A program made the position numbers and the translations under genes. From NCBI RefSeq assembly GCF_024298765.1, contig NZ_CP101210.1: DNA of 64,000 nt. The stretch is one strand, 5' to 3'. This stretch comes from Escherichia coli (lineage in GTDB: Bacteria; Pseudomonadota; Gammaproteobacteria; Enterobacterales; Enterobacteriaceae). Positions 29,479-45,863 of the stretch are shown here, piece by piece (position 1 is the first letter of the stretch; every line of letters starts with the position of its first letter). Below the pieces are notes generated by a model. That model was not told where the DNA came from. It made no database searches and saw nothing but the letters and a program-made list of their open reading frames with translations.

Positions 29479-30119
29479 TTGTCGGTATACCTCTCTCGTT
29501 TGCTCAGTTGTTCAGGAATATGGTGCAGCAGCTCGCCATCACCACAGTAAATGGCGGCATGATTCGGCACCGATGAACCAAAACAGCACAGCAGCACATC
29601 GCCCGGTTGTGCTGATGACAACGGCACCTGATACAACCCTGTGGCCTCCAGATTATCCAGATAGAGATTCTGACCGTGACGCCACCAGTCATCCTCGCGA
29701 TGAAAATCCGGCATCTCAATCCCCGCCAGATGATAAGCATCCCGGAACAGCGTGTAACAGTCCGTCACCCCGTGCTCAAAGCGCCGCCCGGTGAGATGCG
29801 GCACACAGCGGAACTTATGAATCGTCCCCCGGCAGACCAGCCACCACGGCAAATCACTCTGCACCTGCAGCCGCCGGTCGGCCTCACTCAGCCAGGGCAG
29901 ACCACCGGGGTGGCTGTGGACCAGCGCCACAATCTCACCCTGCATTTCTGCCTGCAGCCAGTCTTCCGGCGACATACGGAAATACGCCTCCGGCTCACCG
30001 GAGATATTCACGCAGGGGAAATATCTTTCCCCCTCCGGCGTGCTTACCACGAAGCCGCACGACTCCGCTGGCGCACATCGCCGGGCGTGCGCCAGAATCG
30101 CTGATTCTGTCTGTGTCAT
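29376..30119 (-). CDS. K: tail assembly protein K (NlpC/P60 + JAB/MPN domains)
   Basis: 247-aa ORF; HSHP and Cys-His peptidase motifs; exact start uncertain. Confidence 0.85.
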   Translation of the reverse strand: MTQTESAILAHARRCAPAESCGFVVSTPEGERYFPCVNISGEPEAYFRMSPEDWLQAEMQGEIVALVHSHPGGLPWLSEADRRLQVQSDLPWWLVCRGTIHKFRCVPHLTGRRFEHGVTDCYTLFRDAYHLAGIEMPDFHREDDWWRHGQNLYLDNLEATGLYQVPLSSAQPGDVLLCCFGSSVPNHAAIYCGDGELLHHIPEQLSKRERYTDKWQRRTHSLWRHRAWRASAFTGIYNDLVAASTFV

Positions 30120-30124
30120 GGGAT

Positions 30125-30823
30125 TTACTGCGAAAGTTTGTTAATGGAAAGGAAGCCGCCAAAGTTGCCGACGTTATTGCGAAACTTACAGCCACTCAGG
30201 CATTTGCTGCACTTATCCTTCGTGATATCGGACGTTGGCTGGTCATATTCATCCGCGACCGCCGGACCGTGATAACCGCACTCATCGCCGCGATAGGTCC
30301 AGGTGCAGGTGTTGGCCAGCATGATACGTCCCGGAAAAACAGCGCCATCCGTTTCCGTCGGCGTGGACAGTACAAAGGAGGCACTGACCGCGCTCAGTTC
30401 GCTGCACTGCTCGATGCGCCAGCGGCTGATCACCTCCTGCTCCGGATCGGCGTCGCTGTTTCCGTTGACGAAGTTCACCGCATCCAGAAAACGGGCGTAA
30501 ACCTTACGCCGGACCACCGTTCCGCCGACCAGACTCTGCATATCTTCCGCCATCCCGGTGACCATACCGTACAGGTTAGAAACCGTCAGCGTGGGGCGTG
30601 TACTGGTGCCTTTGCCATTCAGTTCAAAACCGCTCCCCTGAATGGGATACGGCTGATACTGTCGCCCCTGCCAGGTGACCGGCTCACCTTTTTCGTTCTG
30701 CTCATTACAGAAAAAATAACGTTCTCCACCGACCTCTGTCAGGTCGATTTCCCAGAGCACCACGCTGGCCGACTGCTCCGCACGGGTGCATTCATTCAGT
30801 GTTTCCTGCCGGATATCCTGCAT
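30125..30823 (-). CDS. L: minor tail protein L
   Basis: 232-aa ORF matching lambda gpL. Confidence 0.95.
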   Translation of the reverse strand: MQDIRQETLNECTRAEQSASVVLWEIDLTEVGGERYFFCNEQNEKGEPVTWQGRQYQPYPIQGSGFELNGKGTSTRPTLTVSNLYGMVTGMAEDMQSLVGGTVVRRKVYARFLDAVNFVNGNSDADPEQEVISRWRIEQCSELSAVSASFVLSTPTETDGAVFPGRIMLANTCTWTYRGDECGYHGPAVADEYDQPTSDITKDKCSKCLSGCKFRNNVGNFGGFLSINKLSQ

Positions 30824-31152
30824 CAGTTCACCACCTGTTCAAACTCTGCGCTGAACTCAACACGCAGCATACTGACCCGCGACGACCATTTTGCGCAGGT
30901 CACCTTTATCTGCCGCCACTCATAAGGCGGCGTCCACAGAAAGGCTTTCCAGCCCCCGTGCTCTTCCAGAAACGACTCCAGTACCGTGGCCTCCTCACGG
31001 GGGACAGAAAGCGTCACGCTGTACGTTTTCAGGTTGGCATTCAGCCCGGCAGGCGCTCGCTGGGAATAGCCATCACCAAAGCGCACCTTTCTTACAGAAG
31101 GGGCCGAAGCCACATCCATACCGGGTTTCACTTTCCAGCGGAAGGTTTTCAT
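30823..31152 (-). CDS. M: minor tail protein M
   Basis: 109-aa ORF matching lambda gpM. Confidence 0.95.
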   Translation of the reverse strand: MKTFRWKVKPGMDVASAPSVRKVRFGDGYSQRAPAGLNANLKTYSVTLSVPREEATVLESFLEEHGGWKAFLWTPPYEWRQIKVTCAKWSSRVSMLRVEFSAEFEQVVN

Positions 31153-33710
31153 CGTCCACCTCCGGAGAACAGGCCACCATCACGCATCTGTGTCTGAATT
31201 TCATCACGGGCACCCTTGCGGGCCATGTCATACACTGCCTTCATCATCTGTGGACCTGGCAGACCATTCGTACCGTCGTTCTGAATCACCACGTGATTGT
31301 TCTGATTAAAATTAATGCCTTCAGCCCGCCGCATCTGCGCCGGACTTCCGGCACCGCCCACATAACCACCTTCCGCATAGCCCCGCATCAGGCGGTACAG
31401 GTTGCCGACACCAATCCGGCTGGTTGCCTCCTTCGTGAAGACAAATTCACCACGGTGAACAATCCCCGCTGGCTCATATTTGCCGCCGGTTCCCGTAAAT
31501 CCCCCGGTCGCAAAATGGAATTTCGCCGCAGCTGCCTGAATGGCTGTACCGCCTGACGCGGATGCGCCGCCACCAACAGCCCCGCCAATGGCGCTGCCGA
31601 TACTCCCGACAATCCCCACCATTGCCTGCTTAAGCAGAATTTCTGTCATCATGGACAGCACGGAACGGGTGAAGCTGCGCCAGTTCTGCTCACTGCCGGT
31701 CAGCATCGCCGCCATATTCTGTGCAATACCATCAAAGGTCTGCGTGGCAGCACTTTTAACCTGCGACATACTGTCCGTGGCGCTCTCTTCCCACTCACTC
31801 CAGCCGGACTTCAGGCCTGCCATCCAGCTCCCGCGAAGCTGGTCTTCAGCCGCCCAGGTCTTTTTCTGCTCTGACATGACGTTATTCAGCGCCAGCGGAT
31901 TATCGCCATACTGTTCCTTCAGGCGCTGTTCCGTGGCTTCCCGTTCTGCCTGCCGGTCAGTCAGCCCCCGGCTTTTCGCATCAATGGCGGCCCGTTTTGC
32001 CCGTTGCTGCTGTGCGAATTTATCCGCCTGCTGCGCCAGCGCGTTCAGGCGCTCCTGATACGTAACCTTGTCGCCAAGTGCAGCCAGCTGGCGTTTGTAC
32101 TCCAGCGTCTCATCTTTATGCGCCAGCAGGGATTTCTCCTGTGCAGACAGCTGGCGACGTTGCGCCGCCTCCTCCAGTACCGCGAACTGACTCTCCGCCT
32201 TCCACAAATCCCGGCGCTGCTGGCTGATTTTCTCATTTGCTCCGGCATGCCTCTCCAGCGTCCGGAGTTCAGCCTGAAGCGTCAGCAGGGCAGCATGAGC
32301 ACTGTCTTCCTGACGATCGCCCGCAGACACCTTCACGCCGGACTGTTTCGGCTTTTTCAGCGTCGCTTCATAGTCCTTTTTCGCCGCCGCCATCAGCGTG
32401 TTGTAATCTGCCTGCAGAATTTTCCCGTCCTTCAGTGCCTTGTTCAGTTCTTCCTGACGGGCGGTATATTTCTCCAGCGGCGTCTGCAGCCGTTCGTAAG
32501 CCTTCTGCGCCTCTTCGGTATATTTCAGCCGTGACGCTTCAGTATCGCTCTGCTGCTGCGCATTTGTGTCCTGTTGACTCTGCTGTTCAGCCTTCTTTCT
32601 CGCGGCTTCAAGCGCAAGACGGGCCTTTTCACGATCATCCCAGTAACGCGCCCGCGCTTCATCGTTAACAAAATAATCATCCTTGCGCAGACTCCAGATG
32701 TCGTCCGCTTTCTTAAACGCAGCCTCTGCCTTAATCAGCATCTCCTGCGCGGTATCAGGACGACCAATATCCAGCACCGCATCCCACATGGATTTGAATG
32801 CCCGCGCTGTCCTGTCTGCCCAGGTCTCCAGCGTACCCATGTTCTCTTTCAGGCGGCGGGTCTGGTCATCAAACCCTTTCGTCGCGGCCTCGTTCGCCGC
32901 CTGCAATGCCCCGGCTTCATCGCCGGAACGCTGCAACTGAGCAACATACGCAATCTGCTCCGCCGTCACGTTATGGAACTGGCGTGCCATCGCCGTCAAC
33001 CCCGACGTCGGGTCTGTGGTCAGCTTCCCGAAGGCTTCAGCGACCTTGTCCACCTCCACACCGGATGCAGAGGAGAAACGCGCCACACTCTGGCTGATGG
33101 ACGCAATCTGAGCCTCACCGCTTACTCCCGCCTTAACCAGTGCGCTGAGTGACTCGCTGGTCTGGTTAAACGTCAGCCCTGCCACCTGCCCGGCTCTGGA
33201 CAGGACCAGCATGCGATCTGCCGTCAGACCCGACTGATTGCCGGAAAGGACCAGCGTTTTGTTGAAATCGGACAGGGTTGAGTTGCCCTGATACCAGGCA
33301 TACGCCAGCGCACCGGTCGCCACCGCCAGCGAGGTGGCCCCCACCATCGGCAGGTTGATCGCACCGGCAAGCCCCCTGAACATGGGGATCATCCCGCCGA
33401 AGGAGTCCTTAACCTGCCCCCCCTGTTGCAGCAGGATCAGCCACGGACTTTGCCCGCCTGCAAGCTGCGTGGCCACGTCGGTGAACTGTGCAGGCAGCAT
33501 ACGCATGGCGGCTTTATACTGTCCGACGGAAATCCCCGCTTTCTGTGCAGCCAGCGCCTGCCGGTTCATTGACTGTTCAACGACTGCCGCTGTTTTTTTC
33601 GCATCACTTTCCGTACCGGAAAAATGACGCCTGACTCTGGCCATCTGCTCGTCAAATCTGGCCGCATCCAGACTTAAATCAACGACCAGATCGCCTACCG
33701 GTTCAGCCAT
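31149..33710 (-). CDS. H: tail tape measure protein H
   Basis: 853-aa ORF matching lambda gpH. Confidence 0.95.
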   Translation of the reverse strand: MAEPVGDLVVDLSLDAARFDEQMARVRRHFSGTESDAKKTAAVVEQSMNRQALAAQKAGISVGQYKAAMRMLPAQFTDVATQLAGGQSPWLILLQQGGQVKDSFGGMIPMFRGLAGAINLPMVGATSLAVATGALAYAWYQGNSTLSDFNKTLVLSGNQSGLTADRMLVLSRAGQVAGLTFNQTSESLSALVKAGVSGEAQIASISQSVARFSSASGVEVDKVAEAFGKLTTDPTSGLTAMARQFHNVTAEQIAYVAQLQRSGDEAGALQAANEAATKGFDDQTRRLKENMGTLETWADRTARAFKSMWDAVLDIGRPDTAQEMLIKAEAAFKKADDIWSLRKDDYFVNDEARARYWDDREKARLALEAARKKAEQQSQQDTNAQQQSDTEASRLKYTEEAQKAYERLQTPLEKYTARQEELNKALKDGKILQADYNTLMAAAKKDYEATLKKPKQSGVKVSAGDRQEDSAHAALLTLQAELRTLERHAGANEKISQQRRDLWKAESQFAVLEEAAQRRQLSAQEKSLLAHKDETLEYKRQLAALGDKVTYQERLNALAQQADKFAQQQRAKRAAIDAKSRGLTDRQAEREATEQRLKEQYGDNPLALNNVMSEQKKTWAAEDQLRGSWMAGLKSGWSEWEESATDSMSQVKSAATQTFDGIAQNMAAMLTGSEQNWRSFTRSVLSMMTEILLKQAMVGIVGSIGSAIGGAVGGGASASGGTAIQAAAAKFHFATGGFTGTGGKYEPAGIVHRGEFVFTKEATSRIGVGNLYRLMRGYAEGGYVGGAGSPAQMRRAEGINFNQNNHVVIQNDGTNGLPGPQMMKAVYDMARKGARDEIQTQMRDGGLFSGGGR

Positions 33711-34137
33711 ACCGGACTCCTCCTGCGATCCCTTCTGATACTGTCATCAGCATTACGTCATCCTCCGTCATGTCCGCCACATCCGGGGAAGCGGGGATAA
33801 CTTCATTCCCGTCCGGGCCAAAACGAACGCCTCCGGCAAGCCCTGCCGCTTTCTGCATCAGCACATCATCTTCAGGCTCTTCGTCAGCCTCGCGCCGGTT
33901 CAGCAGACTGAAATCCAGCGGATGCATCTCCGGATCGCTGAAAAACAGGCTGAGCACGGTGTACGTCAGCCCGGAAAAGTGCATATCCAGCAGAACATCA
34001 TGAAAATAATGGGTACTGTAAAAGCGGTGCCAGTCGGCATACTCCGTGGATGACATCCCGGCAAGCATGGCGCGCCAGTCGGGTCGCCCCATCTCACGCG
34101 CCAGTTTCAGGGCAAAACTCAGCTCACCGTCGAACAC
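33703..34137 (-). CDS. T: tail assembly chaperone T frame (expressed as G-T fusion by -1 frameshift)
   Basis: 144-aa ORF overlapping G 3' end; slippery GGGAAAG at the overlap. Confidence 0.85.
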   Translation of the reverse strand: MFDGELSFALKLAREMGRPDWRAMLAGMSSTEYADWHRFYSTHYFHDVLLDMHFSGLTYTVLSLFFSDPEMHPLDFSLLNRREADEEPEDDVLMQKAAGLAGGVRFGPDGNEVIPASPDVADMTEDDVMLMTVSEGIAGGVRYG

Positions 34138-34541
34138 TTTCCCGCAGAAACAGGCACTGCAGGCCCGGCGTCCTCTGCCTGTTCAGGAGCATCATTCACC
34201 ACAAACTCATACATACCGGACAGCCGGTACACCACGTTTTCAGCATGAGAAATTGCCTCTGTGGGCCAGGTGGTAAGCACTTCCTGCTCAATCTGTTTAA
34301 CGGCTTCATTCATGGAAGGCAGCTTTGTCTTCTGCGGATGGTTATGCCACAGGGACATCGCTACCACAAAAGCACCGGTTCTGATGGCGTCTTCCACAGT
34401 AAACTTCCGGTTGCTGTCTGACTCCGCCTGTTCTGCCTGCCGTTTCATCAGGTCGAGATGCTCAATACGCTGCAGGGCTGACAGTTCAGAAAGCGTGACG
34501 GTCACACCGTTATGTTCAAATGATTCGGTTTTCAGGAACAT
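34119..34541 (-). CDS. G: tail assembly chaperone G
   Basis: 140-aa ORF matching lambda gpG. Confidence 0.92.
   Translation of the reverse strand: MFLKTESFEHNGVTVTLSELSALQRIEHLDLMKRQAEQAESDSNRKFTVEDAIRTGAFVVAMSLWHNHPQKTKLPSMNEAVKQIEQEVLTTWPTEAISHAENVVYRLSGMYEFVVNDAPEQAEDAGPAVPVSAGKCSTVS
34137..34143 (-). other. programmed -1 ribosomal frameshift slippery site (G GGA AAG) for G-T
   Basis: ctttccc on + strand = GGGAAAG on minus strand at the G/T overlap. Confidence 0.75.
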
Positions 34542-34556
34542 CGCTGACTCTCCGGA

Positions 34557-35297
34557 TTAACTGGCGGTGACGTTGATTTCTGCAACCGCAGCAAACTCAC
34601 CATTACCAGATACGACCGGAATGTTGACCTTGCCTGCAGCAACACCTTTCACGGTGATGGTCATACCACTGACCGACACGGTGGCTTTTGTTTTATCCGC
34701 AGACACCGCACGGAAGCTCTTGTCGGTTGCGCCATCCGGCTGGAATGCCACGGTCAGCGTGGTGCTCTGCCCTTTCACTACGGAAGCACTGGCGGGTGTC
34801 ACCGTCATGCCGGTCGTCGCCGTCACCGTGCTGCGATCTTCTGCCATCGACGGACGGCCCACATTGGTGACCTTCACCGTGCGGGTAATCACTTCCTTCG
34901 CCGTCACCGCCTTACCGATACTGCTGACCCAGCCACGGAACACATCGACCGTGCCGTTCGGGAAGCGGATTTTATAGGCACGGGTATCACCTTCATTAAA
35001 CCACGCCAGCAGCGCCTGCTGCCCCTGCTCTCCGGGCATCCACGCCAGCGTGAAGCTGGTATCTCCGGCAGATTTCTGCCCCTGCCCGGTCGCAGTCCAG
35101 TCTGCATCTTCATCATCGAGATAGCTGTCGTCATAGGACTCAGCGGTCAGTTCGCCGGGCGTCAGGTCTTTAACTTTTGCCAGACGCGACCAGTCAACGT
35201 CTGAAAGCGGGTTCGCATAAGGGTCACCGCTCCCCTTATAAACCCACAGGGTGGTTCCGGCACCTTTCACCGGTATTGCTGGATTTGGTACAGGCAT
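34557..35297 (-). CDS. V: major tail protein V
   Basis: 246 aa from [16 protein letters not shown]...; C-terminal Ig-like domain. Confidence 0.95.
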
Positions 35298-35304
35298 ATC
35301 GTCC

Positions 35305-35700
35305 TCACATTTCATAGGTAATGACATACGTCAGATCGGCAGAACTCCACAAGCCCGCATCATCGTCGCGCCGGTAGTCATAGCCACTGGCCACCATACT
35401 GGTGATCAAATCTGACAGTGCCGGGATATCGCTCATCACCGGATAAATCCGGGACTCCATCCACGCATCCAGCTCTGAATCCGGCACCTGAGCAGGCAGG
35501 AAAACTTCAATATGCAGCTCCGCCTGCCAGGTATCGCTGTCCAGCTCTTCGCCCGTGTATTCAGCGCCGGTGAGATAAACGGCAATTGCCGGAAAATCTT
35601 CCTCATCAAAAACAGCAGGGCGACCATCAAAAAACGTCGCCCCGGTGTCATGCTTCTCCAGTGCATCCAGTACGGCTGCACGGAGTTCAGTATGTTTCAT
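35305..35700 (-). CDS. U: tail terminator protein U
   Basis: 131-aa ORF matching lambda gpU. Confidence 0.95.
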
Positions 35701-36275
35701 CGCTTTATTACCATCCTCAGTTGATGCTGCAGCGCATAGCCCAGCTCTTTCGGAAGACGCTCACGCCGTATCCGCTCAATATTCTGTTTAAACGCCGTGG
35801 TCAGCGGCACCGCCATCGGGATTTTCACCACATCAATGGGGTAACGGTTTTTCCCGGCCACACGCTGCATGACATGCCAGCGGCCATTTTTCAGTTGCTG
35901 AATAAACGCGCCGGGAATACGACGGTTTCCCACCACAAGCACGCTGCCGCCACCTTTCAGGGCTGAACGCTGCCCCTTTTTACGACGCCTGCGTCGGGAC
36001 AGGACAATCCGCGCGTTACCCAGCTTTATTACGGGCAAATCCCCCCGGTTAACCTTGATTCTGGCCTGCGGATTTTTGACCGTGGCCCTTTTCAGCCAGG
36101 CCCTTTCCTTTACCAGTTTCCGGCGTACCTTTGTCTCACGGGCAACCTGTGACGCCGACTGCGATATCGCGGATGAAGCAACGCGGTTAATGGCCATTGC
36201 GGCGGCACCGGGCACCGCCGTTCTGCTGATACGGCTGAGGTTTTCAACGGCCTGCTCAAGACCTTTTATGGCCAT
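35697..36275 (-). CDS. Z: tail completion protein Z
   Basis: 192-aa ORF matching lambda gpZ. Confidence 0.93.
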   Translation of the reverse strand: MAIKGLEQAVENLSRISRTAVPGAAAMAINRVASSAISQSASQVARETKVRRKLVKERAWLKRATVKNPQARIKVNRGDLPVIKLGNARIVLSRRRRRKKGQRSALKGGGSVLVVGNRRIPGAFIQQLKNGRWHVMQRVAGKNRYPIDVVKIPMAVPLTTAFKQNIERIRRERLPKELGYALQHQLRMVIKR

Positions 36276-36286
36276 ACATCCCCCTT

Positions 36287-36640
36287 TCAGCGGCGACGGT
36301 TAACGGCAGGCGGTACGCCCCGCCCAAGCCAGAGATGACAGCTTCCGCCATCATCCGGCGAAATCCGGTCTATCCAGAAGTTTTCCTCACCGATGGTCAG
36401 CGTGTCGCCGCGCCGCAGCTGCCGCACATCATCAGTCCGGACAAACAGGGACGGGCTGGAGCCTTCAACGCGTACGCCCTGTCCGGCATAGCTGATATTT
36501 TCAGGGTCATCAAAAACACCACGTATTACTGCGCCGGACTGCTCACCGGATGTCATGGTGGCTGACGTTCCCATGTACCCGCGTATCGTTTCATCGGCGC
36601 GGGCAATGGCAGCATCGAACAGGTTATCGAAATCAGCCAC
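36287..36640 (-). CDS. FII: head-tail connector protein FII
   Basis: 117-aa ORF matching lambda gpFII. Confidence 0.93.
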   Translation of the reverse strand: MADFDNLFDAAIARADETIRGYMGTSATMTSGEQSGAVIRGVFDDPENISYAGQGVRVEGSSPSLFVRTDDVRQLRRGDTLTIGEENFWIDRISPDDGGSCHLWLGRGVPPAVNRRR

Positions 36641-36651
36641 AGCGCCTCCCG

Positions 36652-37047
36652 TTATTGCATTCTGGCCAGGCCGCGCTCTGTCATTTCAGCTGCCACACCG
36701 GCAGAGACACGGAACGCCGTTCCCGGCAGCACAAATGCCACAGCCTCATCCCGCGTGGCGTGAAGTGCATCAGTATGCAGCGTCACCAGTGCCACAACCG
36801 TGACCAGATCAGCCGTATCAGTCACGGTATCCGGCTGCGCTGATACCACCTCATTTTCATGTCCGGTCAGCGCATTTTCCGGGCTGACAGATGTGTCCTG
36901 ACCGGCAGCGTCATCCGTGTCATCAAGCTCCTCTTCCAGCTCTGCCACACGGAGCGCCAGTTCTTCTTTCGTCCCCGTCAGGCTGACATCACGGTTCAGT
37001 TGTTCACCCAGCGAGCGGAGACGGGCAATCAGTTCATCTTTCGTCAT
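36652..37047 (-). CDS. FI: DNA packaging protein FI
   Basis: 132 aa from MTKDELIARLRSLGEQLN... Confidence 0.9.
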   Translation of the reverse strand: MTKDELIARLRSLGEQLNRDVSLTGTKEELALRVAELEEELDDTDDAAGQDTSVSPENALTGHENEVVSAQPDTVTDTADLVTVVALVTLHTDALHATRDEAVAFVLPGTAFRVSAGVAAEMTERGLARMQ

Positions 37048-37088
37048 GGACTCCTCCACAGAGAAACAATGGCCCCGAAGGGCCATGA

Positions 37089-37877
37089 TTACGCCAGTTG
37101 TACGGACACGAACTCATCAGGGTCAGCCAGCAGCATCAGCGGTGCTGACTGAATCATGGTGAACTCACGCGCCGGATCGCCGGTGGTCACCCAGTTTTTC
37201 GGGTAACGGGCAGAGGCGTTAATGCCTTCGCGCTGTGCGTCCGCATCCTGAATGCAGCCATAGGTGCGCAGACCGCGTGCATGAGTGTTACCCAGCACCA
37301 TCGTGTTGTCCGGCAGGAAGTTCTTTTTGACGCCGTTTTCCACGTACTGTCCGGAATACACGACGATGGCCACATCGCCATACATCCCCTTATAGGACAC
37401 CGCTTTACCCAGGTCTTTCACCGCTGTCTCCAGCTCGGAATGAGAGCCGCGACGGGTATCCAGCTTCTCCTTGACGGCGTTGAAGGAACGGAACAGCGCC
37501 CAGCCTTTCGGATCAAACACGATGATATTCACCACGCCGCTGGCGTTCAGCGCGTAGGCTTCGATATCGTCGGTCGGGTCATACGTGGACTTGTCACGCT
37601 TGCTCCACTCCGTGCCGCCGGACTGCGTGATGTTGTTCGCCGCACTGCGGCCCATATCCACCTCAACCGGATCGAAGGCTTCACCGGTCATGGTGTATTT
37701 GCCCTTGAGCACGGCAGAAACTGCCTGCATCTCTTCGACCTGAGCAATGGCCAGCTCTTCGTCACGCATGTTCTGCAGGATGATGCGACGGCGGCGGTAA
37801 GCCGGGTCCGCCAGATTCTGCGGATCTTCATCCGGCAGGCGACGCAGGGTCATCTGCGGATTCACTTCATGCTTGGG
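37089..37877 (-). pseudogene. E: major capsid protein E, C-terminal portion (gene split by island insertion)
   Basis: Encodes ...PKHEVNPQMTLRRLPDEDPQ... to the E C-terminus; upstream in-frame sequence is island DNA with an immediate stop. Confidence 0.9.
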
Positions 37878-37879
37878 TT
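37870..37879. repeat. island left junction direct repeat (att core) tgcttgggtt
   Basis: Identical 10-mer recurs at 48754-48763 at the other E junction. Confidence 0.8.
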
Positions 37880-38013
37880 ACATGAGTCAAATATGAAAGG
37901 ATGTGAATGATTTGATTACGTTTTAGCTATAGAATTGAAATGGAAAATCCTTGAATGCAATACAACGTGCAATACATGGATGAAAACCATCACTCATTTA
38001 ACAAGAGGAATCT

Positions 38014-38919
38014 ATGCGCTCACCCAACAGAATGCATGAACGCTCAACATTTTATAAGTATATGTCGTTGAATACCGCGAAGATTGTTCTTGATTCATGC
38101 AGCCTTAGATGGAGTTCTCCGGTCCTATTTAATGACCCTTTTGATGTTCCAAGAGAAGTTATGCCTGGTATTAACGAAATTAATATTGGCAAAGCTTTAG
38201 CCCGCAAGTTAATAGCGGAGTTGATTACCCCCAGAGAAGACATACAAAATTTAAACCCTAGAATTAGAACAATGCTAAGTGATTTCCAAAAGTCATTTCC
38301 TTTAGGCATACCCGCAGGATTAATTGAAAGATTTCAAGAAATGGTAAACATTCCACCAGTTGGGATTGGCGCTCCTGCGGCAATACAAGAAATGAAAGAT
38401 ATCTGGCGAGGAATGCTTAATAACAGAAGGATTTTGTGTTTATCTGAGAGCCCTATAATCACTCCTATGTGGAATCACTATGCCGATAAATATAAAGGTA
38501 TAGTTATCGAATTTGATTGTGTAGACTTTCTGGATAGCGCTTGGTTAATAGCCAAACCTATGAAATACACAGATGAAATGCCTCTAACTCACACTGCTGA
38601 AGGGATGGCCGAGTTGCTTTTCATGCCAGACAATAAGTCAATTGAATATATCAATAATGAGATAATATTCATAAAAACAGAAGAATGGGCATATGAAAGA
38701 GAGTGGAGAATTTCAACCTACGCTAGGCCAAATAGCACTGGTCAATATAGCGACTTAAAATTTCACCCTTTTGAGTTAAAATCTGTAATACTTGGTCCTC
38801 TTTTTGATGCCAGCGAGTTCGATGAAGTCGCATCACTAGTTAAAATGTATCCAAGAGCGAAATTATTTAAAAGTTCATTTGGGAACGACAGAAAAATATC
38901 CATAGTACCACTACCTTAA
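38014..38919 (+). CDS. hypothetical protein, DUF2971-like (low-GC cargo gene)
   Basis: 301-aa ORF with GAGGA RBS; motifs FYKY...LRWSSPVLFNDPFD, MWNHYADKYKGIVIEFD, EREWRI recalled as DUF2971-like; family assignment from memory only. Confidence 0.6.
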   Translation: MRSPNRMHERSTFYKYMSLNTAKIVLDSCSLRWSSPVLFNDPFDVPREVMPGINEINIGKALARKLIAELITPREDIQNLNPRIRTMLSDFQKSFPLGIPAGLIERFQEMVNIPPVGIGAPAAIQEMKDIWRGMLNNRRILCLSESPIITPMWNHYADKYKGIVIEFDCVDFLDSAWLIAKPMKYTDEMPLTHTAEGMAELLFMPDNKSIEYINNEIIFIKTEEWAYEREWRISTYARPNSTGQYSDLKFHPFELKSVILGPLFDASEFDEVASLVKMYPRAKLFKSSFGNDRKISIVPLP

Positions 38920-38949
38920 AAGGTCAAATGCTTTTGACAAATAAAATCT

Positions 38950-38976
38950 ATCGCCAGTTTTACTGGCGACTTTTAA
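38950..38976 (+). terminator. hairpin terminator between convergent DUF2971-like gene and Nu1-like gene
   Basis: cgccagttttactggcg stem-loop followed by cTTTTaa. Confidence 0.35.
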
Positions 38977-39025
38977 GCAACAAAGAACCACCTAAGCACT
39001 CTTCCTACCTATGGTTTCATTTGTT

Positions 39026-39577
39026 TTAACTTCGCTGATTATCCTTGATATACCTTTCAGCCATATCTGGAATGTTATCTGAGATCTGGTAAGCTCGAAT
39101 AAATGCTTTACTGACCTCCATCTTAATGAAGTCCTGATACCGTTTTTCCATGCCAGGAAACTGTCGACAGATCGCAAGTGGAAGACTATCAATGATTGCT
39201 CCAACTTCCCCAGTTAATTTCGACAAGGCATAAGTCGCAAATGCAGTGTCAATTACCTCACCTGTTTCGCTGGCATTCTTCAGTTCCTGTGCGTCGGCCT
39301 GCGCACGCGTAAGTCGATGGCGTTCGTACTCAATAGTCCCTGGCTGGAGATCTGTCTCGCTGGCCTGCCGCAGTTCTTCAACTTCCCGGCGCAGCTTTTC
39401 GTTCTCAATTTCAGCATCCCTTTCGGCATACCATTTTATGACGGCGGCAGAGTCATAAAGCACCTCATTACCCTTGCCACCGCCTCGCAGAACGGGCATT
39501 CCCTGTTCCTGCCAGTTCTGAATGGTACGGATACTCGCACCGAAAATGTCAGCCAGCTGCTTTTTGTTGACTTCCAT
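39026..39577 (-). CDS. terminase small subunit homolog (Nu1-like chimera)
   Basis: 183 aa; residues 1-~103 essentially identical to the prophage Nu1 at 54397-54942 (winged-HTH cosB-binding domain), C-terminal ~80 aa diverged. Confidence 0.88.
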   Translation of the reverse strand: MEVNKKQLADIFGASIRTIQNWQEQGMPVLRGGGKGNEVLYDSAAVIKWYAERDAEIENEKLRREVEELRQASETDLQPGTIEYERHRLTRAQADAQELKNASETGEVIDTAFATYALSKLTGEVGAIIDSLPLAICRQFPGMEKRYQDFIKMEVSKAFIRAYQISDNIPDMAERYIKDNQRS

Positions 39578-39739
39578 TGTTCATTCCACGGACAAAAACA
39601 GAGAAAGGAAACGACAGAGGCCAAAAAGCTCGCTTTCAGCACCTGTCGTTTCCTTTCTTTTCAGGGGGTATTTTAAATAAAAACATTAAGTTACGACGAA
39701 GAAGAACGGAAACGCCTTAAACCGGAAAATTTTCATAAA

Positions 39740-39800
39740 TAGCGAAAATCCGCGCGCCTGACGCCCCGTAGCCTGTCAGATCGCCGGAAAGGACCCGCCA
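39740..39800. other. cos-like site of the island (variant cosN)
   Basis: Aligns to prophage cos at 55100-55165; the 12-mer equivalent to the cohesive end (39755-39766, cgcctgacgccc) differs at 5/12 positions from aggtcgccgccc. Confidence 0.7.
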
Positions 39801-39822
39801 GCCAGAGCGGGCCCTAATTTCA

Positions 39823-40206
39823 TCAACCAATCAGCTTATAGCGACCATCCCGTGCATTGCGGCGTACACGCTCAATCTTGAGGCATAGCGCCGCATCTGG
39901 CTTTTTTGGGACAGGTACGCGGCAATATTCAGAAGCGCGAGGAATATTATTTATCCAGTCGATCACTTCACTTAAATACCAGGCCTTACGCCCTTCCGTA
40001 ACCTGCACACGCTCCGGGAACTCTCCACTAGCCTCAAGGTTTAGCAGTGTACGCCGACTCAGGGTTGTAATTTCCATCACCTGATTCATATCAACAAGGC
40101 GCTCGCTTAAACACATTTTGTCAGCGATAGCTTTTAATTCCTCTACAGCTGGATTCGGGTACATCATTTCGGCAATTGGCTTAAGGTCATTGTAATCATT
40201 CTGCAT
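39823..40206 (-). CDS. AlpA/MerR-like HTH protein
   Basis: 127-aa ORF; central motif ITTLSRRTLLNLEASGEFPERVQVTEGRKAWYLSEVIDWIN resembles AlpA-family HTH. Confidence 0.6.
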   Translation of the reverse strand: MQNDYNDLKPIAEMMYPNPAVEELKAIADKMCLSERLVDMNQVMEITTLSRRTLLNLEASGEFPERVQVTEGRKAWYLSEVIDWINNIPRASEYCRVPVPKKPDAALCLKIERVRRNARDGRYKLIG

Positions 40207-40217
40207 TGTATCCCCCT

Positions 40218-40559
40218 TTACACACGAGCCAGCGGCTGAACAGAAATACCTGAGCCAACAAACGCTGCAATCTTTACTGACAGTTCTTTTACAGACTCAG
40301 GCCAGTTCAGAGCATCAACATTTAAGACACCTGTCTTATAGACCTGAGCCTGTGTTTTTTTCGCGGTGTCGATTTGTACAGCGGAAACATAAACCGCTTT
40401 ACCTACGCTCGAACCATCCCATACCACCAGTGCACCTGTTGCATCTTCCTGCATCAGTGGCGTAAATGCAGGAATTACCCCTTTATTAGCTGAAAATATC
40501 CCCAGCGTAGTCACCAGTGCTTCAGTGCCAGCCATGAGTTCAGTGTAATGAGTAGCCAT
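40218..40559 (-). CDS. head decoration protein, gpD-like (divergent)
   Basis: 113 aa; shared pattern with lambda D (TPLM...WDG...YK.G...WPE...AF.G..IS) at ~30% identity. Confidence 0.7.
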   Translation of the reverse strand: MATHYTELMAGTEALVTTLGIFSANKGVIPAFTPLMQEDATGALVVWDGSSVGKAVYVSAVQIDTAKKTQAQVYKTGVLNVDALNWPESVKELSVKIAAFVGSGISVQPLARV

Positions 40560-40568
40560 TGCTCCCCC

Positions 40569-41615
40569 TTAGCCAATGCGAACGGTAACAAAACGATTGA
40601 TGCGGGCCGGTATTGGCTGTGGTGCTGAATGTGTCTGCACATATTCAATAGCCGGATCACCAGGCACAATATAGTTTTTCGGTGCAAGTTCGGCTTTAGT
40701 CAGCCCCATTCGGATTAGCTCCGGATCCTGAATACCGCCATAGGCGACAATCCCCTGAAGAGCCGTATTGCCAAGCACCATCAAATCAGGATCAAGGAAA
40801 TGTTTTTCAGTTCCGTCCTCGTCGGTATAACGCCCGCTGTATACAACAATCGCAACATCGCCCATATACCCTTTAAAACTCACCGAATCACCAAGGTCTT
40901 TAAGGGCCGTTTCCAGTTCGGAATTAGAGCCACGACGGGTATCCAGAGCCTCTTTTATCGCTCTGAATGAACGGTATTTCTTCCATACATTACCGCCCAT
41001 AATGATGATATTAGTGACGCCCTCACTAAATTCTGCGTAGCTCTCAATATCATCATTTGGATCAAAAGTTTCTTTATCCTTACCTGACCACTCAGCACCG
41101 CCAGACTGAGTGATGATATTTTGTGGTTTAATATTCCAGTCCAGCTCATAACGTTCAATACCATCGCCCTCAATGATATTTTTCCCCGTTGTGATTGCCT
41201 GAACGGCAAGCCATTCAATACGTGCACGAATAGATTTAGCCTGATTTACAATCGCCTGTTTAACTTTAATATTACGCGCTCCAAAAGCATTGTATTGCTC
41301 AGGTGATACACCAGCAGGGCGCACAGCTAACTTATTTGGATCAATGCTGCTTTTCGGCTTCATATAGCCTGGACGAATTGTTTTTGATTCGTACCCTTCG
41401 TCACGTGAAACTTTACTACCCACCATAGGAGAACAAAACGCTGCAATTGGGATATTTGGATCGTCGATTGTATCAAGAATAATATCGCGCGATTCAAACA
41501 TTACCGAGCGAGTAAAAAACAAACTGGTAAACAACGCATTTAGTTGTTTTTGTACATCTACAGCATTAACCACCTGTACAAGCTGGGTAGGCGAATATAA
41601 ATCAACCATACGCAT
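40569..41615 (-). CDS. major capsid protein, gpE-like (divergent)
   Basis: 348 aa from MRMVDLYSPTQL (RBS AAAGAGG); ~50% identity to prophage E over ITQSGG...DTRRGS.SELETA...GDVAIVVYSG...MVLGNT. Confidence 0.85.
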   Translation of the reverse strand: MRMVDLYSPTQLVQVVNAVDVQKQLNALFTSLFFTRSVMFESRDIILDTIDDPNIPIAAFCSPMVGSKVSRDEGYESKTIRPGYMKPKSSIDPNKLAVRPAGVSPEQYNAFGARNIKVKQAIVNQAKSIRARIEWLAVQAITTGKNIIEGDGIERYELDWNIKPQNIITQSGGAEWSGKDKETFDPNDDIESYAEFSEGVTNIIIMGGNVWKKYRSFRAIKEALDTRRGSNSELETALKDLGDSVSFKGYMGDVAIVVYSGRYTDEDGTEKHFLDPDLMVLGNTALQGIVAYGGIQDPELIRMGLTKAELAPKNYIVPGDPAIEYVQTHSAPQPIPARINRFVTVRIG

Positions 41616-41826
41616 CCTCTTTGCATTCATTAAAAATAATTGTGGATATATGCTATCACCGATATTTGTCATGCGAATACATGCAACCGAGTGCAATGTT
41701 GTATAAAGTTTTGGGATAACAACTTCAGCGCGGATAATTAGTGTTAATATCTTAACTCCCTTTGGTCGGGATTTATGTAGCATGCCGGAAAATTTATTTT
41801 TTTCCGGCCTTTTTTATTGGCAATAT

Positions 41827-42276
41827 TTAAAACGGAATATCATCTCCCCATTGCTCATTATCTCCCACTGGTGGATGGCTTCCTTGCTGATCTGCCTGTT
41901 GTTTTGCTCTGTTCAGTGCGTCAGTAGCCTGACCCTGTTGACCTTTTTTGCCGCCCGGTCGCACCGTTCGCGCACTGATTACGCTGTCTGCGATAACCTG
42001 CCAGCCCTGCCGCGTTTCACCGTTCTGTCCAGTCCACTGGCTCACCTGCATATTACCCGCCACGCTCAGGAGTTCGCCTTTGTGATGCTTTGCCAGCGCG
42101 TCGGCTTGTCTGCCAAACGCCAGGACAGATAACCACATCGTCGCCGTTCCGTCATCTGCCTGGCTGCATGGCAAAGATACCGCCATCCGTGCCAGTGTCA
42201 TGGGTGTTCCCTTGCTGGTATGTTTTACCTGTGGGTCGTCCACCAGCCGCCCGTAAGCTGCTATTTGCGCCGTCAT
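41827..42276 (-). CDS. ssb: single-stranded DNA-binding protein
   Basis: 149-aa ORF with OB-fold pattern, Gly/Gln-rich linker and acidic C-terminal tail ...GDDIPF. Confidence 0.8.
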   Translation of the reverse strand: MTAQIAAYGRLVDDPQVKHTSKGTPMTLARMAVSLPCSQADDGTATMWLSVLAFGRQADALAKHHKGELLSVAGNMQVSQWTGQNGETRQGWQVIADSVISARTVRPGGKKGQQGQATDALNRAKQQADQQGSHPPVGDNEQWGDDIPF

Positions 42277-42287
42277 GCTGCCTGCTC

Positions 42288-42530
42288 TCAGGACTTAATA
42301 TTGATGGTTGTCACTTCCTCCGCTTCGGCAATCTCCCGTTCGGTCAGCGTGGCAAAGTTTGCAGCCGCCGTTGTCATGAATGCGCTTATCAGTTCGGGAT
42401 GTGCTTTCGCGTATCCTTCCCCGGCGTTGCGGTCTATTGCCTTAATCGCCACCCTTAGCCAGTGTTCAGCCATATCAAGGGCGCGGTAATGTGGCTTTAT
42501 ATGTTTGTTCAGTTTTCCTGATGTGTGCAT
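42288..42530 (-). CDS. hypothetical protein
   Basis: 80-aa ORF in operon between origin and ssb. Confidence 0.5.
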   Translation of the reverse strand: MHTSGKLNKHIKPHYRALDMAEHWLRVAIKAIDRNAGEGYAKAHPELISAFMTTAAANFATLTEREIAEAEEVTTINIKS

Positions 42531-42559
42531 TTTTATTTTTACCCCCTCGTTTAAAAAGT

Positions 42560-42810
42560 TTTTTGTGCACCACCACCTTGTCTACCTTGTCTACCTGATT
42601 AGTTATCAGGCCAGTAATGGCGCGGGTTTCAGGGAGGTAGACAGCCCCAAATAGCTGTCTACCTCATCTCTACCCGTCTCCTTACCTGTCTACAAAAATG
42701 GGTAGATAAGGTAGATAACAGGTAGACAGTGAAAAATAGTTATCTACCTGCATTAATGCATTGAAATAAAAGTATTTTATTTCAGTCAGGTAGACAAGGT
42801 AGATAACCAT
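42560..42810. repeat. iteron cluster, putative island origin of replication
   Basis: >12 copies of GGTAGAYA / TRTCTACC in both orientations immediately downstream of the primase gene. Confidence 0.8.
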
Positions 42811-42819
42811 TGCCATTTT

Positions 42820-44571
42820 TTATAAAAACGCATCGCAATCATCAGTAGTCGTTGCGTTGGTCTGCGTGACTCCCTTAACTTTTCGCGTAATATATTCATA
42901 TCCGTAAACTTTCGCCGCTGACCTCATAGCCTTTCCGAACTCATTCACGCTCAAACATTTCCCCTTTCCTGTATATGCCATGAAGGCCATATAGACACGG
43001 TAAAGGCTGTTTCTGGTCGTGTACTTCACGGTGTCACCACCACCGCCCATCATTAGCCCACGAGCTTCCTCCAGAAACTCCAGCGCCGCGCAAAGCTCAA
43101 CAACCGGATCCGTTTGCTGCTTTATTGCCAGAGCTTCATCACCGTCACGCTGTTCCAGTAATAAAGCCCGTGCCTTTTCAGGGTCAGCAAAATTAGCCAG
43201 CAAGCGGCGGATAATTACGGGGATTTCTGCCGCTATCTTTTCCGGTAATTCCTTGTCTTTTTCGTCCTCCCTTACAATGTTGTCGAACCGGAAAATCACC
43301 CGACGGCGTGACACACCTCCGGCCCGTTCGGTAAAGATCATCGGGTCGTTATTGGTTGCCAGTACCACCGCCCTTATTATCGTCGTGAATCGCTTCTCAT
43401 ATTTCGGGTTAATTTCAACGGGATCGCCTCCCGTGATTTTCTTGATGCCCGTGCCTTCCCCCGTATATTTCGGCTGATCGGCAAGGACGATAAGACGACT
43501 CCCGACAACCTGCGCACGCCCTCCTGCATCATCGAGTGATGTCATCTCTGCGCTTACGGTGTTCTGTTTGCCAGCAAGCAGGGTGGCAATATGGGTAAAT
43601 GTACTCTTACCGCTTCCCCCGTCTCCGGTGGCCTCAATGAACATCTGCCAGTCGTACCGGTTCGCCATAATCATGTACAGCGCGGCACATATACGCATCA
43701 TCTTGCGCGGGTCTTTTCCGGCTGCGTGCTCAAGCCATTTATGAAAGTTTGGCGCGTTATCGCGGATGTTCTCCCCTGGTGCTGGTGGCGTGTACTCAAT
43801 GCCGTTGTGCGTGGTGATCCAGTTCTCCGGCGTGTGCGGGGAAAATTCCCCCGTTTTCAGGTCAAGCGCACCATTGGCGAACGGCAGCAAATCGCCGGAC
43901 GGCTCGCCCATTGGTTCGGCAATAACTTTTAACGCTTCAACGGCGTTATTGATCACGCGTTTGCTGAAAGTGGCCCTGTGCTCTGAATAGATCGCCACCA
44001 TTTCGCGGCTCAGCTCCATTGTGCTGATCGGACACCATACCCCGCCGCGCCATACGTGAACGATTTCACTTTCCGGATGCACACAAACGCCATCAAAGCG
44101 CTCGGCAAGCAGCTGCGCGCGCTCACTGTCTGCCATCTGTGAAAGTTGCGCCTTTTGCTTCGTCGGAAGATTAAGCACCAGGCTTTCCCCACGCTCGCAT
44201 TCCTCTTTGAGTCGCGGCAACTGGTCGGATAAATCCACTGGGCTGATGTCAGTAATCCCCGCGTATTCGTGTACGGTCTTCACTCCAGCCACAGCCAGTA
44301 ACGTAACAATCTGCGTCATGCTGTGCTCTGTGATATGTCCTGCGCGGTAAACACGCACACACTGACGATCTTCATCAATGATCCGGTAATCGGTGATGTT
44401 TTTCAGTTGCTCATCAGCCAACACGACAGGCGGCACATCGTCGGCGGCAATATGTTTACCCGCCCATTCCTGCCACTCTTTCGCATGGCTCCACGCATCA
44501 CTACCTGCAAAGATGATTATCTCTGTCAGTCTGTCGCGTGGCTGTTTTTTTAAGTTCGGTGCCAGTTTCAT
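42820..44571 (-). CDS. primase/helicase-like replication protein (P-loop NTPase, D5/P4-alpha-like)
   Basis: 583-aa ORF with Walker A GDGGSGKST and primase C-terminal-like region. Confidence 0.8.
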   Translation of the reverse strand: MKLAPNLKKQPRDRLTEIIIFAGSDAWSHAKEWQEWAGKHIAADDVPPVVLADEQLKNITDYRIIDEDRQCVRVYRAGHITEHSMTQIVTLLAVAGVKTVHEYAGITDISPVDLSDQLPRLKEECERGESLVLNLPTKQKAQLSQMADSERAQLLAERFDGVCVHPESEIVHVWRGGVWCPISTMELSREMVAIYSEHRATFSKRVINNAVEALKVIAEPMGEPSGDLLPFANGALDLKTGEFSPHTPENWITTHNGIEYTPPAPGENIRDNAPNFHKWLEHAAGKDPRKMMRICAALYMIMANRYDWQMFIEATGDGGSGKSTFTHIATLLAGKQNTVSAEMTSLDDAGGRAQVVGSRLIVLADQPKYTGEGTGIKKITGGDPVEINPKYEKRFTTIIRAVVLATNNDPMIFTERAGGVSRRRVIFRFDNIVREDEKDKELPEKIAAEIPVIIRRLLANFADPEKARALLLEQRDGDEALAIKQQTDPVVELCAALEFLEEARGLMMGGGGDTVKYTTRNSLYRVYMAFMAYTGKGKCLSVNEFGKAMRSAAKVYGYEYITRKVKGVTQTNATTTDDCDAFL

Positions 44572-44867
44572 TTTTTGCCCCTGAATGCGTTAATCATGCT
44601 TTTCATTTTCTGGATGTTTCCCCGCGCTTTTTCCCTGCTGATGGGCTTACTGCGGGGTGCGGCATATACCAGGGAAAAATCACGCCGGAACTGATAAACA
44701 GGCATCACGCAGTCATAGCTATACCCCTCACGACGGTAAGTGATGCGCCGTTCTGCCACGCCTTTAATCGTTACCGTGCCGCCGTATTTATCGCGGTAAA
44801 TATCGCCGTTCATAAATTCAGGCCGAGCGGGGCCGCTGGCAATAAAGCCAGAATTTTTCATTTCCAT
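44568..44867 (-). CDS. hypothetical protein
   Basis: 99-aa ORF overlapping primase start by 4 nt. Confidence 0.55.
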   Translation of the reverse strand: MEMKNSGFIASGPARPEFMNGDIYRDKYGGTVTIKGVAERRITYRREGYSYDCVMPVYQFRRDFSLVYAAPRSKPISREKARGNIQKMKSMINAFRGKK

Positions 44868-44884
44868 ATTATTTATTCCTCGAC

Positions 44885-45106
44885 TTAACTCGACTTATTT
44901 GATAGCTGGGCACTATTTATTGCGTCATTGAGTTTTTCTGCTGCTTCATCAATAAGTGACAACAGGCCATAAGCAATATTTGCATCTTCATTGTCATTTA
45001 TGCAATCAAGCCACATATTTAATATTGCTTTTGCTGAATTATTTAAAGTTAATGAACTTTCTGCACATGCTAACAATTTAAAAAAGACTTCCCGTTCTGT
45101 ATTCAT
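44885..45106 (-). CDS. hypothetical protein
   Basis: 73-aa low-GC ORF in the island leftward operon. Confidence 0.5.
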   Translation of the reverse strand: MNTEREVFFKLLACAESSLTLNNSAKAILNMWLDCINDNEDANIAYGLLSLIDEAAEKLNDAINSAQLSNKSS

Positions 45107-45298
45107 TTAATCCCCCACCAGCTTACTTTCTTCCTCAATCAAAAAACTAGCGACACTTCCCGAAAGACGCGCCAGTAGGCTCGCCAGTGCGGATATATCA
45201 GCATCTGTAATTTTGTTCGGGTATACCTCAAGAAGGCGGCAAATAATTTCTGTCTGGTGCGCACGTTCAGCGGCTTCGTGTAATGTGATTTCCTGCAT
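45107..45298 (-). CDS. hypothetical protein
   Basis: 63-aa ORF, start/stop abutting neighbours. Confidence 0.5.
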   Translation of the reverse strand: MQEITLHEAAERAHQTEIICRLLEVYPNKITDADISALASLLARLSGSVASFLIEEESKLVGD

Positions 45299-45483
45299 TA
45301 ATGCACCTCTTTTAATTCATACACTGCTGAAATAATGACTTGTGATAAGCCATATTCTGATGATTCGCTTCTCACCGCAGCAATAGCCGTCTGAACATTA
45401 ACAGCCTTCACATTCTGAGCGATACCAATTGTGTGGCCTATTGGGTTAACAGCTCGGGCAAATACACGGAAGGTTTTAAGCAT
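45298..45483 (-). CDS. hypothetical protein
   Basis: 61-aa ORF in operon. Confidence 0.5.
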   Translation of the reverse strand: MLKTFRVFARAVNPIGHTIGIAQNVKAVNVQTAIAAVRSESSEYGLSQVIISAVYELKEVH

Positions 45484-45673
45484 GACTCACTCCCTGGCGG
45501 ATTTTTGCAGCGAATACAGCAACACAACCGGACGGGCAACGGCTACGCGCTTCGCGTTCCGTCCAGGCGGTTACGTGGATGATTTGAGATTCTCCGGCAC
45601 TCAGTGCCAGAAAACGCCACACAAAGGCCGTTTGTGTGTGTACAAGGTGTGGTATATGATTTACAGCAACCAT
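45476..45673 (-). CDS. hypothetical small protein (first gene of leftward operon)
   Basis: 65 codons from internal ATG preceded by AGGAG at -7; rest of the 243-aa ORF-track call rejected. Confidence 0.35.
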   Translation of the reverse strand: MVAVNHIPHLVHTQTAFVWRFLALSAGESQIIHVTAWTEREARSRCPSGCVAVFAAKIRQGVSHA

Positions 45674-45797: not shown

Positions 45798-45863
45798 GTC
45801 AAGGCTTTTTGTATTTCTTTTTTTGTGTATACTGAAACACACCGATGATTAGGAGTTTCAGAA

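What the first reader, a model, noticed from the sequence alone, without database searches (positions are those of the whole stretch)
34119..34143. Conserved G-T programmed -1 frameshift site
The slippery heptamer GGGAAAG lies exactly at the G/T overlap, as in lambda, indicating the tail assembly chaperone pair is intact.
Basis: established knowledge. Interest (0 to 1): 0.2.

Follow-up and report, generated by a model that had tools for sequence, protein, structure and literature searches.

The report
Lambda-type G-T tail chaperone frameshift site
This is the well-known lambda G/T tail-assembly-chaperone frameshift site, intact in a lambda-like prophage of E. coli; it is ordinary and found in most E. 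coli genomes.

Summary
Confirmed, and ordinary. GGGAAAG lies on the minus strand at window 34143..34137, in phase G GGA AAG of a 140-aa ORF (34541..34119). That ORF is a lambda gpG equivalog. The -1 frame runs open from the heptamer for 146 codons to a stop at 33703 and is a lambda T equivalog.

An 871-base stretch from the end of V to the start of H aligns to lambda without gaps at 97.5% identity. The heptamer is in the identical column. The predicted G-T fusion is 279 aa in both.

The pair sits between the tail tube gene V and the tape measure gene H, as in lambda. In 76 of 77 related viral loci with a complete G, down to 67-69% G identity, the same heptamer holds the same phase and position. 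The segment occurs in 3692 of 5426 complete E. coli genomes.

The heptamer alone is not rare in the window (12 seen, 7.35 expected). Phase, position and homology carry the argument. Frameshifting itself is inferred from lambda experiments and was not tested here.

One caveat on "intact": the prophage's capsid gene E is split by a 10.9-kb satellite. This is a known helper-embedded PICI arrangement, reported to excise after induction. Novelty: already known.

The parts
34137..34143 (-). Slippery heptamer G GGA AAG (X XXY YYZ), the site of the -1 shift
   Evidence: Read directly. Identical column to lambda and phage 434 in a gapless alignment. Conserved in 76 of 77 related loci.
34119..34541 (-). 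Gene G, tail assembly chaperone, 140 aa, zero-frame product
   Evidence: ORF. PF06894 at 6e-59. TIGR01674 equivalog at 3e-62. 133/140 aa identical to lambda G.
33703..34143 (-). T reading frame (-1 relative to G), open from the heptamer for 146 codons to its stop; expressed only as the C-terminal part of G-T
   Evidence: Translation without stops. PF06223 at 2e-14. TIGR01715 equivalog at 1.6e-56. 143/144 aa identical to lambda T.
33703..34541 (-). Predicted G-T fusion coding region: join(34541..34137, 34137..33703), 279 aa
   Evidence: Constructed fusion is 279 aa in both window and lambda, 271/279 identical. Phage 434 record annotates the same join.
34557..35297 (-). Gene V, major tail tube protein, immediately upstream of G
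   Evidence: PF16461 at 1.4e-70 plus Big_2. PGAP 741-nt CDS in the near-identical genome. Same order as lambda.
31149..33710 (-). Gene H, tape measure protein, 853 aa, start overlapping the end of T by 8 bases
   Evidence: PF06791 at 1.7e-69 and PF09718 at 3.7e-21. Same 2562-nt length as lambda H.
34059..34129 (-). Predicted branched RNA structure beginning 7 nt after the heptamer; unproven, not claimed as functional
   Evidence: MFE fold has z = -2.35 against shuffles. 98.7% of cells paired in 12 relatives, but no compensatory change.

Best explanation
This is the lambda-type programmed -1 ribosomal frameshift site of the tail assembly chaperone genes G and T, carried by a lambda-like prophage in an E. 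coli chromosome. Most ribosomes translating G on the minus strand read G GGA AAG in frame and stop six codons later, making the 140-aa gpG. A small fraction slip back one base on the heptamer. The glycine and lysine tRNAs re-pair with GGG AAA, and those ribosomes continue in the T frame to make a 279-aa G-T fusion. By analogy with lambda, gpG and the G part of gpGT coat the tape measure protein H. The T part recruits the tail tube protein V, and neither chaperone ends up in the finished tail. What is shown here is the sequence, phase, open frame, homology, gene order and conservation. Inferred from lambda experiments are the slippage itself, its roughly 4% frequency and the chaperone role.
For: Heptamer and phase read directly. 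The 871-base stretch from the end of V to the start of H aligns to lambda without gaps, 849/871 identical, with the heptamer and about 60 nt on either side of it nearly unchanged. G is 133/140 and T is 143/144 aa identical to lambda, and the fusion is 279 aa in both. Curated equivalog models for lambda G and T both pass far above cut-off, as do the Pfam families. Gene order Z-U-V-G-T-H-M matches lambda. In 76 of 77 related IMG/VR loci with a complete G, including G proteins only 67-69% identical, GGGAAAG is in phase with its GGA codon 7 codons before the G stop. The -1 frame is open for 105-154 codons in all 72 loci where it can be followed to a stop. The synonymous positions inside the heptamer are invariant in 41 distinct sequences, while G third positions further upstream vary. 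Literature: lambda's G/GT slippery sequence is GGGAAAG, with the zero frame kept about 96% of the time (PMC3296357). G_GGA_AAG is highly shift-prone in E. coli (PMC5009743). The 30:1 G:GT ratio is crucial; gpG and gpGT bind gpH, the T domain binds gpV, and neither is in virions (PMC5009743). Phage 434, 99.1% identical here, is annotated with the joined GT product.
Against: No expression data were obtained for this strain, so frameshifting is inferred, not observed. The heptamer by itself is not statistically unusual in the window. RefSeq/PGAP annotates G and T as two separate CDS without a slippage join. The prophage's capsid gene is interrupted, and IS elements lie next to its tail-fibre end, so this particular copy may be rarely or never used productively.
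Confidence: 0.93

Rival explanations
1. The site is genuine but idle. The prophage is defective, so G, T and the frameshift are a well-preserved relic that is not productively used in this strain.
For: The lambda-type capsid gene E is split into 37089..37877 and 48754..48999 by a 10.9-kb insert. An IS1 transposase, IS fragments and an AraC-family regulator lie between the tail-fibre genes and ybhB, where the prophage end should be. The integrase end of the prophage lies outside the window and was not examined.
Against: The insert is a site-specific helper-embedded PICI with a clean 10-bp core at both junctions. Such composites have been shown to excise, replicate and then release the satellite, which would restore E (PMC10111431). 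All tail genes from Z to J, and the head genes Nu1 to D, are full-length ORFs. Copies of G/T 100% identical to this one occur in E. coli from chicken, pig, dog and human.
Confidence: 0.15
2. T is an independent gene initiated at the GTG at 34137..34135, as RefSeq annotates it, and no frameshift is needed.
For: PGAP lists 'phage tail assembly protein T' as its own CDS starting at that GTG, as does the lambda RefSeq record.
Against: The GTG overlaps the last base of the heptamer, and no Shine-Dalgarno-like sequence at a usable spacing is visible upstream (read by eye, no scan run). The heptamer's phase and position are conserved in 76 of 77 relatives, which independent initiation would not require. 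Lambda literature describes T sequence only as part of gpGT (PMC5009743, PMC3296357). The phage 434 record annotates the join.
Confidence: 0.03
3. The heptamer is a chance occurrence, or the extended product arises by RNA polymerase slippage on the short G3/A3 runs rather than by ribosomal slippage.
For: GGGAAAG occurs 12 times in the window, not significantly above expectation.
Against: Identical position and phase to an experimentally characterised site, conservation across diverged relatives and invariant synonymous positions. By established knowledge, homopolymer runs of three bases are far shorter than those known to support transcriptional slippage.
Confidence: 0.01

Closest known systems
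Bacteriophage lambda genes G and T (NC_001416 9711..10133 and 10115..10549), G-T programmed -1 frameshift at G GGA AAG
   Same: Same heptamer, same phase, same distance to the G stop, same 279-aa fusion length, same flanking genes V and H. 97.5% nucleotide identity over 871 gapless columns. G is 95% and T is 99% identical in protein.
   Different: Seven substitutions in G and one in T. It resides in a chromosomal prophage whose capsid gene E carries an embedded satellite and whose lysis and late-regulatory region is annotated with DLP12-type gene names.
Phage 434 tape measure chaperone pair (OL657226.1 9710..10548), annotated with the joined frameshift product
   Same: 99.1% identical over the 1051-base query, with the same site.
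   Different: The 434 record annotates the join explicitly. RefSeq E. coli genomes with this same sequence do not.
The conserved tail assembly chaperone frameshift of long-tailed dsDNA phages in general (Xu, Hendrix and Duda 2004, cited in PMC5009743 and PMC10885494)
   Same: Two overlapping ORFs between the tail tube and tape measure genes, joined by a low-level -1 shift.
   Different: Most members share only the arrangement, not the sequence. This one is a near-identical sequence homologue of the founding example.
E. coli dnaX -1 frameshift (A AAA AAG) (established knowledge; not examined here)
   Same: It works alike at the A-site: the single E. coli lysine tRNA slips from AAG to AAA.
   Different: dnaX uses an upstream Shine-Dalgarno-like element and a strong downstream hairpin and shifts at about 50%. 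No stimulator could be established here, and lambda's level is about 4% (PMC3296357).

Membership tests
Lambda-type G/GT tail assembly chaperone with programmed -1 frameshift | Upstream ORF homologous to lambda gpG | tested here: met
   TIGR01674 equivalog 208.6 bits against a cut-off of 74.45. PF06894 at 6e-59. 133/140 aa identical to lambda G.
Lambda-type G/GT tail assembly chaperone with programmed -1 frameshift | Downstream ORF in the -1 frame, overlapping the end of G, homologous to lambda T and free of stops | tested here: met
   146 open codons from the heptamer. TIGR01715 equivalog 189.3 bits against a cut-off of 77.35. 143/144 aa identical to lambda T.
Lambda-type G/GT tail assembly chaperone with programmed -1 frameshift | In-phase X XXY YYZ slippery heptamer within the overlap, shortly before the G stop | tested here: met
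   G GGA AAG at 34143..34137, with the GGA codon 7 codons before the TGA. Identical column to lambda.
Lambda-type G/GT tail assembly chaperone with programmed -1 frameshift | Location between the major tail tube gene and the tape measure gene | tested here: met
   V (PF16461) lies upstream and H (PF06791 and PF09718) downstream, all on the minus strand.
Lambda-type G/GT tail assembly chaperone with programmed -1 frameshift | Conservation of the site among relatives | tested here: met
   76 of 77 loci with a complete G keep the heptamer, phase and position. Synonymous positions of the heptamer are invariant in 41 distinct sequences.
Lambda-type G/GT tail assembly chaperone with programmed -1 frameshift | Actual synthesis of a G-T fusion at a low, fixed ratio to G | not testable with these tools
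   Needs protein detection. Known for lambda (PMC3296357, PMC5009743).
Lambda-type G/GT tail assembly chaperone with programmed -1 frameshift | Requirement of G and G-T for tail assembly; binding to H and V | not testable with these tools
   Needs genetics or biochemistry. Inferred from lambda (PMC5009743).
Frameshift sites with a downstream RNA stimulator (dnaX or IS type) | Conserved stem-loop or pseudoknot 5-9 nt after the heptamer, supported by covariation | tested here: inconclusive
   A fold starting 7 nt downstream has z = -2.35. In 12 relatives 98.7% of cells pair, but no pair changes on both sides and the shuffle control is uninformative. No Rfam family matches.
Helper-embedded PICI, capE site type (side observation) | Roughly 11-kb element with integrase, AlpA, primase and its own E-type capsid gene, inserted in and co-oriented with a lambda-type E gene, with a 10-bp identity block at both junctions | tested here: met
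   The 10-bp core AACCCAAGCA occurs at 37870..37879 and 48754..48763, and the E halves rejoin on the lambda alignment. The insert carries integrase, D5-type primase, Phage_cap_E, HDPD, Nu1 and AlpA domains. This matches the description in PMC10111431. Placement of the integrase in the paper's clade was not tested.

The most novel reading that the evidence does not exclude
The branched RNA fold predicted at 34059..34129, which starts 7 nt after the heptamer and lies in a block of high nucleotide conservation, could be an unrecognised tuner of G-T frameshift efficiency in lambda-like phages. It could help to set the critical G:GT ratio. My data neither support nor exclude this. T is conserved at synonymous sites along its whole length in this sample, so the conservation is not specific to the fold, and no compensatory change was seen.
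Probability: 0.08. Interest if true: 0.3.

Novelty: already known. Interest (0 to 1): 0.07.

Why it matters
It matters little beyond correct annotation. The site is the textbook example of a programmed frameshift in a dsDNA phage, in a copy nearly identical to lambda's, and the segment is present in about two thirds of complete E. coli genomes. There is one practical point. RefSeq/PGAP annotation of this and thousands of similar prophages lists G and T as separate genes and omits the 279-aa G-T fusion. Proteomic searches and prophage-completeness calls based on those annotations will therefore miss a protein that lambda needs for tail assembly. The intact tail module also fits the known biology of the satellite embedded in this prophage's capsid gene, which depends on helper-made virion parts.

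Tried and rejected
1. Bare heptamer statistics: GGGAAAG is not enriched in the window, so I did not use this as evidence and used phase and position controls instead.

2. Downstream stimulator: a fold with z = -2.35 looked promising because of its 7-nt spacing. Pair counting on 12 relatives found only one-sided, wobble-compatible changes and no covariation. Synonymous conservation is no stronger there than in the rest of T. I left it as unproven.

3. Rfam scan of 33600..34700: only a sub-threshold chance hit to an archaeal snoRNA family.

4. Solved structures: no PDB chain matches the G-T fusion by sequence, so no structure-based comparison was made.

5. I first suspected that the satellite in capsid gene E was a new arrangement, possibly a capsid-forming PICI that keeps only the helper's tails. 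The literature search showed it is the described helper-embedded PICI of the capE type. It encodes only E-, D- and Nu1-like late proteins, not a full capsid module, so I dropped the cf-PICI reading.

6. Two other in-phase heptamers with long -1 extensions (CCCTTTA at the end of 252..1013, and TTTCCCC in 29676..30104) were rejected as frameshift candidates. The first is an ordinary overlapping gene junction. The second is an ORF antisense to a tail gene.

7. The primary paper Xu et al. 2013 (PMC3762263) is not held. The original 1993 paper could not be read either, so statements on the absence of stimulators in lambda are not cited.

Full report
**Observation.** The + strand reads CTTTCCC at 34137..34143, so the minus strand reads GGGAAAG at 34143..34137. 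A 140-aa ORF runs from 34541 to 34119 on the minus strand and ends ...GCG GGA AAG TGT TCG ACG GTG AGC TGA. The heptamer is therefore in the canonical X XXY YYZ phase, with its GGA codon seven codons before the stop. In the -1 frame the same bases read GGG AAA GTG TTC GAC..., and that frame is open for 146 codons to a stop at 33705..33703. It is also open for 13 codons upstream of the heptamer. The interval 34119..34143 is exactly the stretch from the heptamer to the G stop.

**Is it more than chance?** The bare heptamer is not. It occurs 12 times in the window against 7.35 expected, and 7 of 100 shuffles reach 12. The combination is. Among 121 ORFs of at least 100 aa on both strands, only three have an in-phase XXXYYYZ in their last 30 codons followed by at least 100 open -1 codons. 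One of the other two is an ordinary overlapping gene junction, and the other is an ORF antisense to a tail gene.

**What it is.**
- The upstream ORF matches Pfam PF06894 (6e-59) and the NCBIfam equivalog for lambda G, TIGR01674 (3e-62).
- The -1 frame matches PF06223 (2e-14) and the equivalog for lambda T, TIGR01715 (1.6e-56).
- Upstream lie U and the tail tube gene V. Downstream lie the 853-aa tape measure gene H, with both lambda-type domains, and M.
- An 871-base stretch from the end of V to the start of H aligns to lambda NC_001416 and to phage 434 without a single gap. It is 849/871 identical to lambda, and the heptamer is in the same column.
- G is 133/140 and T is 143/144 aa identical to lambda. 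The predicted fusion is 279 aa in both.
- The phage 434 record, 99.1% identical here, annotates the joined frameshift product.

**Conservation.** A scan of viral contigs returned 80 loci encoding G relatives. In 77 of them G is complete. In 76 of those, GGGAAAG is in the same phase and at the same distance from the G stop. This includes a group whose G is only 67-69% identical and whose flanking bases differ. Where the -1 frame can be followed to a stop (72 loci), it is 105-154 codons long. Across 41 distinct sequences, the synonymous positions inside the heptamer never vary, while G third positions further upstream vary freely. The one exception, L065, has a G frame broken upstream of the site.

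**How it most likely works.** This part is inferred from lambda. The papers consulted say the following:
- Lambda's G/GT slippery sequence is GGGAAAG, and the zero frame is kept about 96% of the time (PMC3296357).
- G_GGA_AAG is highly shift-prone in E. coli (PMC5009743).
- Hypomodified lysine tRNA shifts more often on this site (PMC7618472).
- The G:GT ratio of about 30:1 is crucial. gpG and the G part of gpGT bind the tape measure protein, the T part binds the tail tube protein, and neither is in the virion (PMC5009743).

Given near identity of sequence and context, the same mechanism is expected here.

**Stimulatory elements.** The 120 nt after the heptamer fold somewhat better than shuffles (z = -2.35), and a branched structure starts 7 nt downstream. 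On 12 distinct relatives, 98.7% of cells pair. However, no pair changes on both sides, and the shuffle control is uninformative because the sequences are too alike. T is conserved at synonymous sites along its whole length in this sample, so the conservation is not specific to the fold. No Rfam family matches. I leave this as unproven.

**Context, and the word "intact".** The window is an E. coli chromosome. The best match is strain 200177 at 99.7%, and the prophage lies next to ybhB-bioA. All tail genes from Z to J are full-length. The lambda-type capsid gene E, however, is split:
- Lambda 6372..14000 aligns to window 37877..30252, and lambda 5500..6379 aligns to 49633..48754.
- Both junctions carry the 10-bp core AACCCAAGCA, at 37870..37879 and 48754..48763.
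- The 10.9-kb insert encodes a tyrosine integrase, a D5-type primase, an SSB, its own E-type capsid and D-type decoration proteins, an AlpA-domain protein and a Nu1-type small terminase.

This matches the helper-embedded PICI of the capE type described by Tommasini, Mageeney and Williams. They reported a 10-bp identity block, 201 instances at this site, and excision of the satellite after induction of the composite (PMC10111431). The G/T pair is therefore intact, and the interruption of E is a known, reversible arrangement rather than simple decay. IS1 and IS fragments next to the tail-fibre end leave open whether this particular prophage can still complete a cycle.

**Comparison and novelty.** All sequence-testable defining features of the lambda G/GT system are met. 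Fusion synthesis and chaperone function cannot be tested here. The segment occurs in 3692 of 5426 complete E. coli genomes, several at 100% identity. The only practical note is that RefSeq/PGAP lists G and T as separate CDS and omits the fusion.

Noticed in passing
window 37870..48763 (insert); E gene halves at 37089..37877 and 48754..48999, minus strand: The prophage's lambda-type major capsid gene E is split by a 10.9-kb integrase-bearing satellite. The 10-bp core AACCCAAGCA is present at both junctions. The insert carries its own E-like capsid, D-like decoration and Nu1-like small terminase genes, plus primase, SSB and AlpA. It matches the published helper-embedded PICI of the capE type (PMC10111431). 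Here the composite sits next to ybhB-bioA rather than at icd.
   Followed up: yes
window 39026..39577 (-) and 38014/38161..38919 (+): The satellite's Nu1-type small terminase gene is an intact 183-aa ORF in the window. In the closest genome (NZ_CM128589.1) it is annotated as a pseudogene with an internal stop. Beside it, on the opposite strand, is a DUF2971 gene that looks like satellite cargo of unknown function.
   Followed up: partly
window 33703..34541 (-), and RefSeq records: RefSeq/PGAP annotates T as a free-standing CDS starting at the GTG that overlaps the last base of the heptamer, and gives no ribosomal-slippage join. The 279-aa G-T protein is therefore missing from the annotation of thousands of E. 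coli genomes. The phage 434 GenBank record does annotate the join.
   Followed up: yes
window 17689..19564: Between the tail-fibre assembly gene and ybhB lie an IS1 transposase (19061..19564), an AraC-family regulator (18096..18848) and IS fragments. The prophage's tail-side end appears rearranged, and its attachment site there may be lost.
   Followed up: partly
window 57895..59052 (+): A 385-aa general porin gene (Porin_1, 5.6e-157; PGAP names the counterpart in the closest genome ompC) sits inside the prophage, between the lysis genes and the early region (Dam methylase, P and O replication genes).
   Followed up: partly
window 34059..34129 (-): Predicted branched RNA fold starting 7 nt after the heptamer (z = -2.35). 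Pairing is kept in relatives, but only through invariant or one-sided wobble changes, so there is no covariation.
   Followed up: partly
window 34557..35327 (-): The ORF of tail tube gene V extends 10 codons upstream of the lambda V start (ATG at 35327 against the annotated start at 35297). PGAP and lambda use the shorter 246-aa form.
   Followed up: partly
L065 1501..1924; L004 and L023 (T frame): Natural variants among relatives. L065 has a G frame that ends early (124 aa), so the heptamer is no longer in phase. L004 and L023 have shortened T frames (131 and 105 codons). These could be decaying copies or assembly errors.
   Followed up: no
window 252..1013 and 1010..2251 (+): An in-phase CCCTTTA heptamer lies 8 codons before the end of a chromosomal ORF whose -1 frame is the next gene. 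It looks like an ordinary overlapping gene junction rather than a recoding site.
   Followed up: no
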